Positions 23,891-24,017 of a DNA stretch of 64,000 bases are shown piece after piece (position 1 is the first letter of the stretch; each line of letters opens with the position of its first letter). The stretch lies in the IMG/VR virus record IMGVR_UViG_3300033463_000016, positions 61,995 through 125,994 of that record; one strand, 5' to 3'. The DNA comes from a virus (taxonomy: Duplodnaviria > Heunggongvirae > Uroviricota > Caudoviricetes). The position numbers were made by a program, and so were the translations under genes. The notes under the pieces are model-generated. The model was not told where the DNA came from. It saw nothing but the letters and a program-made list of their open reading frames with translations, and ran no database searches.

Positions 23891-24017
23891 GGTCGGGGCG
23901 GCAGGACTCGAACCTGCGACACACGGCACCTCAAGCATAAACGTTAAAATTGCTGCAAGTGCCTATCAAGACACCTTTTTGTTTTTTACGTTGCTCTACC
24001 AACTGAGCTACGCCCCG
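23891..24017 (-). ncRNA. tRNA-like gene interrupted by a roughly 55-nt CAGCAAT-box hairpin (intron-like insertion or pseudogene)
   Basis: Perfect 5' half CGGGGCG TA GCTCAGTTGGTAGAGC, perfect T-arm GCAGGTTCGAGTCCTGC and acceptor 3' CGCCCCG, but about 75 nt between D-arm and T-arm instead of about 22; insert contains AGGCAC TTGCAGCAATTTTAACG ... GTGCC hairpin. Confidence 0.5.

What the first reader, a model, noticed from the sequence alone, without database searches (positions are those of the whole stretch)
23891..24017. tRNA gene split by a roughly 55-nt CAGCAAT-box hairpin
A flawless 5' half (acceptor, 8-9, D-arm) and a flawless T-arm plus 3' acceptor are separated by about 75 nt instead of about 22, and no canonical anticodon arm can be drawn. 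The extra sequence is exactly one copy of the repeated CAGCAAT hairpin, flanked by an AACGT direct repeat. It is either a very short intron-like insertion (far smaller than group I introns; BHB-type introns are archaeal) or a tRNA inactivated by insertion of a mobile hairpin.
Basis: seen in the sequence. Interest (0 to 1): 0.6.

Follow-up and report, generated by a model that had tools for sequence, protein, structure and literature searches.

The report
tRNA-shaped Y RNA beside phage Ro60
The "split tRNA" is neither broken nor obviously spliced: it belongs to a large, previously uncatalogued family of phage RNAs that keep a full tRNA shape, carry a conserved hairpin-plus-ACAGCAAU module in the anticodon stem, and almost always sit next to a Ro60-like RNA-binding protein gene, which makes them most likely that protein's Y-RNA-type partner.

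Summary
On the minus strand, 24017-23891 has a perfect acceptor stem, D-arm and T-arm separated by 75 nt that include one CAGCAAT hairpin. One sub-claim is wrong. A canonical 5-bp/7-nt anticodon arm can be drawn: its 5' strand is interrupted after position 29 by a 52-nt insert (ACG|insert|GC-UUGAGGU-GCCGU).

The insert is not an accident. A covariance model finds over 200 such RNAs in phage contigs, and covariation supports every helix (96% of cells paired against about 42% in slid controls). A scan of all viral contigs using only an RNA pattern gave at least 120 loci. Of these, 86 hold a DUF2828 gene in the fetched DNA, always on the same strand, at a median gap of 652 nt. The predicted fold of that protein matches Ro60/TROVE best.

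The same helix-plus-CAGCAA module forms eight other units in the window. It also forms unannotated stand-alone or circularly permuted (YrlA-type) RNAs beside this gene in all six cultured phages checked.

Evidence against a decoding tRNA:
- no 3' CCA (16 of 17 neighbouring tRNAs have one; family-wide p=4e-15);
- a Leu anticodon on a body without the long variable arm;
- fast-evolving triplets.

Evidence against other origins: no target-site duplication, no insert-free twins, no bulge-helix-bulge motif.

Verdict: a new topological variant of Ro60-associated tRNA-like Y RNAs.

The parts
23891..24017 (-). The tRNA-shaped RNA (the finding): a full cloverleaf with a 52-nt module in the anticodon stem. 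It ends A73-C-C and then G, so no CCA is encoded.
   Evidence: Sequence. ARAGORN -i calls c[23891,24017]. Family model R1 gives 108.5 bits at 23892-24017. The 3' tail is ACCG, whereas 16 of 17 sibling tRNAs encode CCA.
24011..24017 (-). Acceptor stem 5' strand CGGGGCG. It pairs with 23894-23900 (CGCCCCG).
   Evidence: The acceptor helix is 99-100% paired, with compensatory changes in all 7 pairs across the family.
23993..24008 (-). D-arm GCUC-AGUUGGUA-GAGC
   Evidence: The D stem is 95-98% paired in the family.
23989..23991 (-). Outer half of the anticodon stem, 5' strand (A27 C28 G29). It pairs with C41 G42 U43 at 23923-23925.
   Evidence: The outer helix is 76% paired on the MAFFT alignment and 90% paired on the independent set, with changes on both sides in all 3 pairs.
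23937..23988 (-). 52-nt insert, the 'module'. It consists of an A-rich linker (23988-23975), the hairpin GUGUCU-UGAU-AGGCAC (23974-23959), UUG, the box CAGCAAU (23955-23949) and a U-rich linker (23948-23937).
   Evidence: The hairpin is about 95% paired, with compensatory changes in all 6 pairs. The box is the most conserved segment, with 0.7% differences among close pairs.
23923..23936 (-). Inner half of the anticodon arm: G30 C31, the 7-nt loop UUGAGGU (triplet GAG), and the 3' strand GCCGU.
   Evidence: The inner helix is 83% paired in the independent set. Family loops have U33 in 76% and a purine at position 37 in 98%.
23901..23917 (-). T-arm GCAGG-UUCGAGU-CCUGC
   Evidence: The T stem is 98-99% paired in the family.
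25327..26853 (-). Gene for a DUF2828/DUF7788 protein with a Ro60 (TROVE + vWA) fold, 1.3 kb upstream of the RNA on the same strand. This is the proposed protein partner.
   Evidence: Pfam and PHROG 'RNA-binding protein'. The AF2 model has pLDDT 77.6. The top four Foldseek PDB matches are Ro60/TROVE proteins over about 500 columns. Homologs are annotated 'Ro-like RNA binding protein' in mycobacteriophages.
27215..27337 (-). Unit H, a circularly permuted (YrlA-type) relative. Its order is closing strand AUAAGGCUC, box CAGCAAU, T-arm, closed acceptor hairpin, D-arm, closing strand GAGCCUUGU.
   Evidence: The Rfam YrlA model aligns at 27.6 bits, below the gathering score. The closing helix appears in both MFE and centroid folds.
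27384..27493 (-). Unit G, an open-ended CAGCAAU unit containing a T-arm. Its ends (AUAAGGCAC-UUA-CAGCAAU ... GUGUCUUGA) are nearly identical to the finding's capped hairpin read across the loop.
   Evidence: Fold z-score is -3.7, with the closing helix present.
27066..27169 (-). Unit I: closing helix plus box ACAGCAAG wrapped around a complete small tRNA-like cloverleaf.
   Evidence: Rfam tRNA hit at 32.5 bits over 27083-27147. Fold z-score is -4.7.
24026..24442 (-). Five tandem open-ended CAGCAA(U/C) units lying directly 5' of the finding: A 24442-24379, B 24364-24320, C 24307-24241, D 24227-24129 (with a T-arm), E 24114-24026 (with an anticodon-like arm and a T-arm).
   Evidence: Each closes through a 7-10-bp helix of the form AUAAG-NNNN/NNNN-CUUGU, whose inner pairs differ between units. 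The helix is present in both MFE and centroid folds of all five.
25275..25303 (-). Promoter-like site TTGACA-17-TACAAT (11 of 12, with TG) upstream of the tRNA/Y-RNA array.
   Evidence: This is a consensus match only, and the count in the region is not above shuffles.
23710..23726 (-). Terminator-like hairpin with a T-run after tRNA-Ile(GAU), the possible end of the array transcript.
   Evidence: consensus match only.

Best explanation
The locus encodes a stable non-coding RNA of about 125 nt. It is a Y-RNA-type partner of the phage's Ro60-like protein, built on an unpermuted tRNA scaffold.

Shown:
- It folds as a complete cloverleaf.
- The 5' strand of its anticodon stem is interrupted between positions 29 and 30 by a conserved module: an A-rich linker, a variable but always paired hairpin with a YCUUG...AAG apex, the invariant single-stranded box (A)CAGCAAU, and a U-rich linker.
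- The module is a reusable unit. In the window and in cultured phages it also forms open-ended hairpin RNAs and circularly permuted YrlA-type RNAs.
- RNAs of this kind are genetically coupled to a gene whose product has the Ro60 ring (TROVE+vWA) fold.

Inferred:
- The RNA is transcribed with the neighbouring tRNAs.
- Its ends are cut by the host tRNA-processing enzymes (RNase P at the 5' end, a 3' tRNA-processing nuclease at the other), because it has an authentic acceptor/T-arm elbow.
- The helix-plus-CAGCAAU module is the docking site for the Ro60-like ring.
- The tRNA-shaped body, including a tRNA-like anticodon loop whose triplet is free to vary, serves as a tRNA mimic. It would tether the ring to tRNA-handling or RNA-decay enzymes, or occupy them. 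The analogies are Ro60-Y RNA-PNPase complexes and the Ro60-like gp130 of phage Bas63, which counters a host defence.
- It is not aminoacylated and does not decode.
For: Structure and selection:
- 22-sequence alignment: 92% of cells paired against about 42% in slid controls, with compensatory changes in 25 of 27 pairs.
- Independent set of 98 distinct sequences: 96% paired, every helix supported.

Family size:
- 31 full members in loci fetched through the protein.
- 172 full members in 100 loci fetched through the RNA pattern.

Linkage, tested without circularity:
- The pattern GGTAGAGC..CAGCAAT..GGTTCGA found at least 120 viral loci.
- 86 contain a DUF2828 gene in the DNA held. All 86 are on the same strand, 76 lie downstream of the RNA, and the median gap is 652 nt.
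- 16 of the 34 negatives have less than 1.5 kb of flank.

Protein fold:
- The top four PDB matches are Ro60/TROVE: phiLo Ro60, Rsr, Xenopus Ro60 with RNA, and a 'Trove domain' entry.

The module as a Y-RNA hallmark:
- The Rfam YrlA model aligns to unit 27337-27215.
- Eight other units in the window close around the exposed box.
- CAGCAA-box units lie in unannotated gaps beside the DUF2828 gene in Enterococcus EFDG1, Klebsiella KP2025, Bacillus PK-3, Felix O1, Listeria LMTA-57 and mycobacteriophage AvadaKedavra.
- One EFDG1 unit is an exact circular permutation of the window RNA. The window RNA's two halves hit Enterococcus phages at 95% identity in permuted order.

Not a decoder:
- CCA is encoded in 9 of 122 family members against 153 of 350 ordinary tRNAs from the same loci (p=4e-15). 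In the window it is 0 of 1 against 16 of 17.
- Ser, Leu and Tyr triplets sit on short-variable-arm bodies, and 19 of 137 triplets duplicate a local tRNA.
- The triplet differs at 7.3% among close pairs, against 0.7% for the box and 3.9% overall.

Literature:
- Y RNAs with tRNA-like domains lie beside Ro60 in bacteria and phages (PMC4201824).
- phiLo Ro60 binds two upstream Y-like RNAs and PNPase (PMC12135203).
- Bas63 gp130 is Ro60-like and counters Ppl, and the authors guess that some annotated tRNAs are Y RNAs (10.1101/2024.10.10.617714).
Against: - No expression, end-mapping or binding data exist for this RNA or any family member. The protein-RNA contact is inferred from gene neighbourhood and from analogy with Ro60-Y RNA.
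- The Rfam YrlA model scores far below its gathering threshold (22-28 bits against 69).
- The box CAGCAAU is not the Ro-binding sequence described for animal or Deinococcus Y RNAs.
- The protein matches Ro60 only at the fold level (TM about 0.45-0.55, 11-17% identity). Sequence search against PDB finds nothing.
- The anticodon arm is more canonical than a mere mimic seems to need (5 bp + 7 nt, U33, R37). Removing the insert in silico yields sequences that ARAGORN accepts as tRNAs in 101 of 102 cases. This keeps a splicing or activation scenario alive.
- A Tpt1 RNA 2'-phosphotransferase and a Thg1-like enzyme are conserved neighbours.
- About 9 RNA-pattern loci with adequate flank showed no DUF2828 gene.
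Confidence: 0.72

Rival explanations
1. It is a pre-tRNA with a new kind of small, protein-dependent intron. The module is cut out, possibly guided by the Ro60-like protein, and the halves are ligated with the neighbouring Tpt1 removing a junction 2'-phosphate. This restores a working tRNA. Permuted copies would mature through a circular intermediate, as in red-algal permuted tRNA genes.
For: - Deleting the insert restores a perfect 5-bp anticodon stem and 7-nt loop with U33 and R37 in most members.
- 101 of 102 in-silico spliced forms are called tRNAs.
- Tpt1 and Thg1-like genes are conserved neighbours, and an RtcB ligase lies near the gene in a Listeria phage.
- Some members would supply anticodons absent from the local tRNA set, for example GUU in L077.
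Against: - No bulge-helix-bulge motif at the junctions (0 of 84).
- At 52 nt it is far too small for a group I intron, and there are no Rfam intron or ribozyme hits.
- No nuclease or RNA ligase is recognisable among the neighbouring proteins.
- CCA is strongly depleted relative to sibling tRNAs.
- The window copy would be a tRNA-Leu(GAG) without a long variable arm. Others carry Ser or Tyr triplets on class I bodies, and 14% duplicate a local tRNA.
- The triplet evolves like a linker.
- About a third of members, and all the stand-alone units, have no restorable anticodon arm.
- An invariant single-stranded box is typical of protein docking, not of known tRNA introns.
Confidence: 0.09
2. It is a tRNA decoy or bait against host anticodon nucleases and other tRNA-targeting defences. 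The tRNA body with a variable triplet draws the nuclease. The module and the Ro60-like protein protect, sense or recycle the cut RNA together with the repair enzymes nearby.
For: - The loop frame is conserved while the triplet varies quickly between close relatives: GUU, UCU and UUU in near-identical RNAs.
- The locus sits in an RNA-repair-style neighbourhood: Thg1-like, Tpt1, Band-7 and phosphoesterases.
- A Ro60-like phage protein is reported to counter a defence system (10.1101/2024.10.10.617714).
Against: - This is purely inferential.
- Triplet variability equals that of unconstrained linkers, so neutral drift explains it as well as an arms race does.
- Many module RNAs have no anticodon loop at all.
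- It overlaps the main explanation as one possible role of the tRNA-like domain rather than replacing it.
Confidence: 0.12
3. It is a dead tRNA gene disrupted by insertion of a mobile hairpin (a MITE-like repeat) that has spread through the tRNA region.
For: - The hairpin-box element is repeated nine times in the window's tRNA clusters.
- AACGT flanks the insert in the window copy and in the L077 ortholog.
Against: - Helices of both the tRNA body and the insert covary across about 100 distinct sequences.
- The insert sits at the same position (28|29 or 29|30) in 59 of 62 canonical cases.
- There is no excess of flanking direct repeats and no insert-free twin.
- The copies in the window differ in stem sequence rather than being near-identical.
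- The RNA is tightly linked, on the same strand, to one protein family across unrelated phages.
Confidence: 0.02
4. The CAGCAAU hairpins are processing or punctuation signals for the polycistronic tRNA transcript, for example a nuclease entry site. The finding would then be a tRNA that happens to carry one.
For: - The units lie between tRNAs within one putative transcription unit.
Against: - A processing signal inside the anticodon stem would destroy the tRNA.
- The units also occur as 2-4 tandem tRNA-shaped copies directly upstream of the Ro60-like gene in phages with few tRNAs, and beside that gene in phages where they are not interspersed with tRNAs, such as Listeria LMTA-57 and mycobacteriophage.
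- Their linkage is to the protein gene, not to tRNA arrays as such.
Confidence: 0.04

Closest known systems
YrlA-type bacterial and phage Y RNAs (Rfam RF02553; Chen et al. 2014, PMC4201824)
   Same: - Encoded next to a Ro60-family gene.
- Contains a tRNA-like domain with authentic D-arm and T-arm sequences.
- One unit in the window (27337-27215) and units in cultured phages have exactly the YrlA order: stem strand, T-arm, closed acceptor hairpin, D-arm, stem strand.
   Different: - The finding is the circular permutation of that layout. Its ends are at the acceptor stem, the protein-docking helix is capped by a loop, and a 7-nt anticodon-like loop is retained.
- The conserved box is (A)CAGCAAU, not the YrlA consensus.
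- Rfam scores are 22-28 bits against a threshold of 69.
- The partner protein is DUF2828, which is Ro60-like only at the fold level.
Thermus phage phiLo Ro60 with Yrl1 and Yrl2 (PMC12135203)
   Same: - A phage-encoded Ro60-fold protein with small structured RNAs encoded just upstream on the same strand. In that system binding was shown experimentally.
- Its structure is one of the two best fold matches to the window protein.
   Different: - The phiLo RNAs are open-ended stem-bulge-stem RNAs with a CGAA motif and are not tRNA-shaped.
- No binding data exist here.
Bas63 gp130 (Felixounavirus), a Ro60-like counter-defence protein (preprint 10.1101/2024.10.10.617714)
   Same: - Felix-O1-type phages carry a homolog of the window protein at about 30% identity, with CAGCAA-box units among the downstream 'tRNA' region.
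- The authors speculated that some annotated tRNAs are Y RNAs.
   Different: - That paper defines no RNA.
- In Felix O1 only open-ended and permuted units were seen here, not the full cloverleaf form.
Intron-containing tRNA genes (bacterial group I introns; archaeal/eukaryal bulge-helix-bulge introns, including non-canonical positions)
   Same: An extra segment interrupts the anticodon arm of an otherwise complete tRNA, and deleting it restores a canonical arm.
   Different: - 52 nt, with no group I core.
- No bulge-helix-bulge motif (0 of 84).
- An invariant sequence box.
- No CCA, and an unconstrained triplet.
- The same segment also exists outside tRNA frames.
tmRNA
   Same: It has tRNA-like ends (acceptor and T-arm) processed like a tRNA, a large functional insertion where the anticodon arm would be, and a dedicated protein partner.
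   Different: - tmRNA has no D-stem or anticodon loop, carries an ORF and pseudoknots, and is charged with alanine.
- The window has its own separate tmRNA at 29447-29935.
Circularly permuted tRNA genes of Cyanidioschyzon merolae (recalled from own knowledge, not checked here)
   Same: The same tRNA body exists in permuted and unpermuted gene orders.
   Different: - Those are true tRNAs, matured through a circular intermediate by the splicing endonuclease.
- Nothing here indicates such maturation.

Membership tests
Canonical decoding tRNA | 7-bp acceptor stem, D-arm and T-arm with the conserved tertiary nucleotides | tested here: met
   Family covariation.
Canonical decoding tRNA | Uninterrupted 5-bp anticodon stem with a 7-nt loop, detectable by standard tRNA finders | tested here: not met
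   The stem is interrupted by 52 nt after position 29. The gene is missed by default ARAGORN and by the Rfam tRNA model at E<=1.
Canonical decoding tRNA | A 3' end like its sibling tRNAs (encoded CCA in this genome) | tested here: not met
   The finding ends ACCG, while 16 of 17 sibling tRNAs encode CCA. Family-wide it is 9 of 122 against 153 of 350, p=4e-15.
Canonical decoding tRNA | Anticodon consistent with the body type and conserved among close relatives | tested here: not met
   GAG (Leu) sits on a body with a 5-nt variable loop. The L077 ortholog has GUU. The triplet differs at 7.3% among close pairs against 3.9% overall.
tRNA with a group I intron | An intron of roughly 200 nt or more with a P1-P9 core, inserted in the anticodon loop | tested here: not met
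   The insert is 52 nt and lies in the stem, not the loop. No Rfam intron or ribozyme match in 20000-33000 at E<=1.
tRNA with a bulge-helix-bulge (splicing-endonuclease) intron | Two 3-nt bulges separated by a 4-bp helix at the exon-intron junctions | tested here: not met
   0 of 84 parsed members show this, against 23 of 1680 in a random-site control.
tRNA with a bulge-helix-bulge (splicing-endonuclease) intron | A splicing endonuclease and ligase available in the phage or host | tested here: inconclusive
   No endonuclease or RNA ligase was found among the scanned window proteins. Tpt1 is present. Only 64 kb of a 171-kb genome was seen, and the host is unknown.
YrlA / tRNA-like Y RNA (RF02553) | Encoded adjacent to a Ro60-family gene | tested here: met
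   The RNA lies 1.3 kb downstream of a Ro60-fold gene on the same strand. In the RNA-first scan, 86 of 86 genes are on the same strand, at a median gap of 652 nt.
YrlA / tRNA-like Y RNA (RF02553) | 5' and 3' ends form the protein-binding stem, and the acceptor-like stem is closed by a loop | tested here: not met
   In the finding the ends are at the acceptor stem and the module helix is capped by UGAU. The feature is met by unit 27337-27215.
YrlA / tRNA-like Y RNA (RF02553) | Score at or above the Rfam gathering threshold (69 bits) | tested here: not met
   22 bits at 23824-23945 and 27.6 bits at 27209-27326.
YrlA / tRNA-like Y RNA (RF02553) | Physically bound by the Ro60 protein | not testable with these tools
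   This needs EMSA, RIP or a structure.
Ro60/TROVE protein family (for the neighbouring gene) | A HEAT-repeat ring plus a vWA domain with a MIDAS site | tested here: met
   The AF2 model (pLDDT 77.6) has its best full-length matches to Ro60 structures, at E from 1.5e-7 to 3.6e-5. The C-terminal half matches vWA domains.
Ro60/TROVE protein family (for the neighbouring gene) | Sequence-level membership (Pfam TROVE) | tested here: not met
   Only DUF2828 and DUF7788 hit. phmmer against PDB sequences finds no Ro60.
Mobile hairpin / MITE insertion | Near-identical copies, target-site duplications, and empty sites in relatives | tested here: not met
   Copies differ and covary. There is no direct-repeat excess, no insert-free twin, and the insert is retained in the syntenic ortholog.

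The most novel reading that the evidence does not exclude
The CAGCAAU module is an excisable cassette. Phages would then encode tRNAs, in both normal and circularly permuted gene order, that are kept non-functional, invisible to host anticodon nucleases, or regulated, until the module is removed. Removal would use a protein-guided cut-and-ligate pathway involving the Ro60-like protein, an RNA ligase and Tpt1. That would be a third, previously unknown kind of tRNA splicing, and the first in bacterial viruses that is neither group I nor bulge-helix-bulge.
Probability: 0.07. Interest if true: 0.9.

Novelty: new variant of a known kind. Interest (0 to 1): 0.62.

Why it matters
- **What it adds to the Ro60-Y RNA picture.** Ro60-Y RNA particles are conserved from bacteria to humans, yet what the tRNA-like part of bacterial Y RNAs does is still open. 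This family shows the Ro60-associated module grafted into a complete, unpermuted tRNA with free acceptor ends and an anticodon-type loop. The same module and body are also found in permuted and minimal forms.
- **What it provides for experiments.** It gives a natural series of topological variants. It also gives a sharply defined candidate protein-binding motif (helix plus ACAGCAAU) that can be tested directly.
- **Links to cultured phages.** It connects a widespread but barely characterised phage protein (DUF2828, in at least 711 deposited phage genomes including Felix O1, Listeria P100-like, Enterococcus and mycobacteriophages) to concrete RNA partners. At least one homolog of that protein is reported to counter a host defence.
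- **Annotation.** These genes are currently unannotated, or are mis-called as tRNAs with introns, pseudo-tRNAs or suppressor tRNAs. They have no Rfam family.

Tried and rejected
- **DNA similarity of the array to deposited phages.** Only ordinary tRNA matches came back, so it gave no help.
- **ARAGORN's own intron drawing.** It shows a 44-nt intron in the loop, a weak stem with a mismatch and a 12-nt variable region. I rejected it in favour of the 29|30 interruption, which is conserved and covaries.
- **My first alternative folds of the insert.** These were a long AACGUAAAA/UUUUAACGUU helix at the anticodon position, and the MFE hairpin GGCACUU..AGGUGCC. Neither pairing recurs in relatives.
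- **A basal helix between the A-rich and U-rich linkers.** It is not distinguishable from compositional complementarity, at 4.1 bp against 3.9 bp in shuffles, so I leave it as unproven.
- **Exact CAGCAAT YTTA string counts in relatives.** These were uninformative, and a structure-aware model was needed.
- **Sequence search of the protein against PDB.** It found nothing. The Ro60 relationship appears only at the fold level.
- **A search for 'DUF2828' in the paper library.** Nothing relevant turned up.
- **PHROG and Pfam scans of unnamed neighbours for nucleases or ligases.** Only phosphoesterases were found.
- **Promoter and terminator scan.** The counts are not above chance, so I use it only as weak context.
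Full report
**1. What is in the sequence.**

The window carries a phage-type tRNA array on the minus strand (17 tRNAs) and a tmRNA. Read on that strand, 24017-23891 is, in order:
- CGGGGCG UA GCUC-AGUUGGUA-GAGC A
- 75 nt
- GCAGG-UUCGAGU-CCUGC CGCCCCG A CC

The acceptor stem, D-arm and T-arm are flawless, and the 75-nt spacing is exact. Default ARAGORN and the Rfam tRNA model do not report the gene.

With a 52-nt insert between positions 29 and 30 (23988-23937), the arm reads A27C28G29 | G30C31 - UUGAGGU - GCCGU, followed by a normal 5-nt variable loop.

The insert consists of:
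- an A-rich linker;
- the hairpin GUGUCU-UGAU-AGGCAC;
- UUG;
- the box CAGCAAU (23955-23949);
- a U-rich linker.

**2. The repeated element.**

CAGCAA(U/C) preceded by a short helix strand occurs nine times on the minus strand, always in the tRNA clusters. Apart from the finding, every copy is an open-ended unit. A 7-10-bp helix of the form 5'-AUAAG-NNNN / NNNN-CUUGU-3' closes the RNA, and the box lies exposed just inside it. The inner pairs differ between units (GACGC/GCGUC, UACCCA/UGGGUA, GGCUC/GAGUC). The helix appears in both the MFE and centroid folds of all eight.

Several units enclose tRNA pieces:
- a T-arm alone (24227-24129 and 27493-27384);
- an anticodon-like arm plus a T-arm (24114-24026);
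- a whole mini-cloverleaf (27169-27066);
- in 27337-27215, T-arm, closed acceptor hairpin, D-arm. This is the circularly permuted layout of bacterial Y RNAs of the YrlA type, and the Rfam YrlA model aligns to it, though far below threshold (27.6 bits).

The finding's capped hairpin (GUGUCUUGA-UA-GGCAC-UUG-CAGCAAU) is essentially the 3' end of unit 27493-27384 joined to its 5' end. So the finding is the circular permutation of the open-ended units. Its termini sit at the acceptor stem and the module helix is closed by a loop.

**3. The neighbourhood.**

A 508-aa protein (DUF2828 + DUF7788; PHROG 'RNA-binding protein') is encoded 1.3 kb upstream on the same strand. Sequence search against solved structures finds nothing. 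An AlphaFold2 model built from 35 homologs has pLDDT 77.6. Its four best full-length matches are Ro60/TROVE proteins: Thermus phage phiLo Ro60, Deinococcus Rsr, Xenopus Ro60 bound to RNA, and a 'Trove domain' entry. Their E-values run from 1.5e-7 to 3.6e-5 over about 500 columns. Mycobacteriophage homologs are already annotated 'Ro-like RNA binding protein'.

Also nearby, and syntenic in relatives, are a Thg1-like enzyme, a Tpt1/KptA RNA 2'-phosphotransferase, a Band-7/SPFH protein and NAD-salvage genes.

**4. Relatives.**

Fetching loci through the protein gave 76 viral contigs plus closer relatives. In 13 genomes, ARAGORN with introns and a covariance model find 31 RNAs of 104-141 nt with the same architecture, on the strand of the Ro60-like gene and usually flanking it.

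The syntenic ortholog in the 73%-identity relative keeps the insert. Its hairpin shows compensatory changes. Its split stem is the same, but its loop is a perfect AU-GUU-AA.

On a 22-sequence MAFFT alignment, 92% of cells pair against about 42% when partners are slid, and 25 of 27 pairs show changes on both sides. The module hairpin is 94.5% paired, with all six pairs compensated.

**5. An unbiased test of the linkage.**

Those loci were chosen through the protein, so the linkage they show is circular. I therefore scanned the whole viral collection with an RNA-only pattern whose spacing no normal tRNA can satisfy: GGTAGAGC N20-50 CAGCAAT N15-45 GGTTCGA. My rough estimate of the chance expectation is about ten.
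- 86 loci contain a DUF2828 gene in the DNA held.
- All 86 are on the RNA's strand, and 76 lie downstream of it.
- The median gap is 652 nt, with many at about 170-180 nt.
- Of the 34 negatives, 16 have less than 1.5 kb of flank and 9 are 63-64-nt matches of another kind.

The model finds 172 full-length members in 100 of these loci, typically 2-4 in tandem. On 98 distinct sequences from this independent set, 96% of cells pair against 39-45% in slid controls. Every helix is supported, including the outer (90%) and inner (83%) halves of the interrupted anticodon stem.

**6. Cultured phages.**

The protein has homologs in 711 deposited phage genomes. In all six examined, CAGCAA-box units lie in unannotated gaps beside the gene, as open hairpins or in the permuted YrlA order. 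The six are Enterococcus EFDG1, Klebsiella KP2025, Bacillus PK-3, Salmonella Felix O1, Listeria LMTA-57 and mycobacteriophage AvadaKedavra.

One EFDG1 unit reads: box, GC-AUAUGGA-GCCGU, T-arm, closed acceptor, D-arm, ACG, closing strand. That is the exact circular permutation of the window RNA. The window RNA's two halves match Enterococcus phages at 95% identity in that permuted order.

The full cloverleaf form was found only in metagenomic contigs and in two unannotated gut 'Bacteriophage sp.' records. Rfam has no family for it. Its generic tRNA model hits some members as 111-127-nt tRNAs.

**7. Decoder, intron, or permanent chimera?**

The anticodon arm is remarkably canonical:
- exactly 5 bp + 7 nt in 62 of 104 distinct sequences;
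- U33 in 76% and a purine at position 37 in 98%;
- the insert after position 28 or 29 in 59 of those 62.

Deleting the insert makes 101 of 102 sequences acceptable to ARAGORN. This is the best argument for splicing.

Against it:
- (a) No bulge-helix-bulge motif at any junction (0 of 84). There are no group I features, and no nuclease or ligase is recognisable nearby.
- (b) CCA is encoded by 16 of 17 ordinary tRNAs in the window but not by the finding. Family-wide it is 9 of 122 members against 153 of 350 ordinary tRNAs from the same loci (p=4e-15).
- (c) The window copy would be tRNA-Leu(GAG) without a long variable arm. Other members carry Ser or Tyr triplets on short-arm bodies, and 19 of 137 triplets duplicate an ordinary tRNA in the same locus.
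- (d) Among 125 close pairs the triplet differs at 7.3%, like the linkers. The box differs at 0.7%, positions 37-38 at 1.2%, and the whole RNA at 3.9%. This is the opposite of what a decoding anticodon shows.
- (e) The same module works in RNAs with no restorable tRNA.

Against a mobile insertion: there is no excess of flanking repeats, no insert-free twin among 1,177 ordinary tRNAs, and the copies are divergent and covarying.

**8. Interpretation.**

The most economical reading is a Y-RNA-type partner of a phage Ro60-like protein, in a new, unpermuted tRNA topology.

The literature supports the general scheme:
- tRNA-like Y RNAs are encoded beside Ro60 in bacteria and phages (PMC4201824).
- phiLo Ro60 binds two upstream Y-like RNAs and host PNPase (PMC12135203).
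- ROT/TROVE proteins with a tRNA-like partner are noted in jumbo phages (PMC7824862).
- The Ro60-like gp130 of Bas63 counters the Ppl defence, and its authors guess that some annotated tRNAs are Y RNAs (10.1101/2024.10.10.617714).

What is shown here is the structure, its conservation, the modularity and the genetic coupling.

What is inferred:
- co-transcription with the array (a promoter-like site at 25303-25275 and a terminator-like site at 23726-23710);
- end-processing by tRNA enzymes;
- docking of the ring protein on the helix-plus-CAGCAAU module;
- a tethering or mimicry role for the tRNA body.

A basal helix within the insert could not be demonstrated.

**9. Limits.**
- No expression or binding data exist.
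- All close relatives are metagenomic.
- Absence of the protein gene was judged only within the DNA fetched.
- The Ro60 assignment rests on a predicted structure of moderate confidence.
- The splicing scenario (about 7-9%) and a decoy role for the tRNA body remain open.

Noticed in passing
window 29447-29935 (-): A phage-encoded tmRNA (Rfam 87.5 bits) that ARAGORN did not call. Inside it, 29639-29731 also passes the gathering score of the wcaG RNA family (48 bits against 42), presumably a cross-match.
   Followed up: no
L036 8086-8237, L058 5238-5388, L074 6216-6364; twin at L043 4339-4413: A different insert class. These are tRNA-Ile(UAU)-like genes with a 74-77-nt insert in the anticodon loop that contains its own T-arm-like hairpin and no CAGCAAU box. 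Unlike the finding's family, they have an insert-free twin that is 96% identical over 75 nt in another phage. These are better candidates for a true intron or a recent insertion.
   Followed up: partly
L036 19272-19405, L058 16706-16839, L074 17290-17424, L038 7237-7360: tRNA genes with a 47-58-nt hairpin inserted after CUUACG in the anticodon loop (apparent Val-UAC), again without the CAGCAAU box, in genomes that also encode the Ro60-like protein.
   Followed up: no
window 20950-21738, 27983-28513, 31167-32831, 16026-19843, 32971-36631 (all -): An RNA-repair-style gene set surrounds the RNAs: a Thg1-like 3'-5' polymerase, a Tpt1/KptA 2'-phosphotransferase, a Band-7/SPFH protein and three phosphoesterases, next to an NAD-salvage block (NAD is the Tpt1 co-substrate). 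The synteny is conserved in L077 and L079. RtcB lies near the homologous gene in Listeria phage LMTA-57, and band-7 lies beside it in a mycobacteriophage.
   Followed up: partly
window 27083-27147, 30401-30471, 30857-30913 (-): Weak tRNA-like elements (Rfam tRNA 31-32.5 bits) that ARAGORN does not call. The first lies inside a CAGCAAG-box unit and has a 4-nt 'anticodon loop'. The other two were not examined.
   Followed up: partly
L202 (Klebsiella phage KP2025, PP919962.1) 3869-4300: The deposited record annotates a 432-nt 'tRNA-Arg-TCT' that runs into the DUF2828 coding sequence, plus 'tRNA-Sup-CTA' and 'tRNA-Pseudo' features nearby. These are probably mis-calls caused by Y-RNA-like or tRNA-like elements around this gene.
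   Followed up: partly
L077 9674-9746 and L078 177-249: The closest relatives carry an ARAGORN 'tRNA-Stop(tta)' call, a possible ochre-suppressor-like tRNA or another tRNA-like RNA. It sits just after a CAGCAAT box and upstream of the Ro60-like gene.
   Followed up: no
window 27575-27648 (-): The second tRNA-Arg(ACG) copy is the only ordinary tRNA in the window without an encoded CCA (tail TATA). It abuts tRNA-His with no spacer.
   Followed up: no
window 24445-24520 (-): A tRNA with anticodon UAU (Ile, AUA) sits alongside tRNA-Ile(GAU). Relatives also carry Ile-UAU, which is unusual for bacteria and may reflect phage codon-usage adaptation.
   Followed up: no
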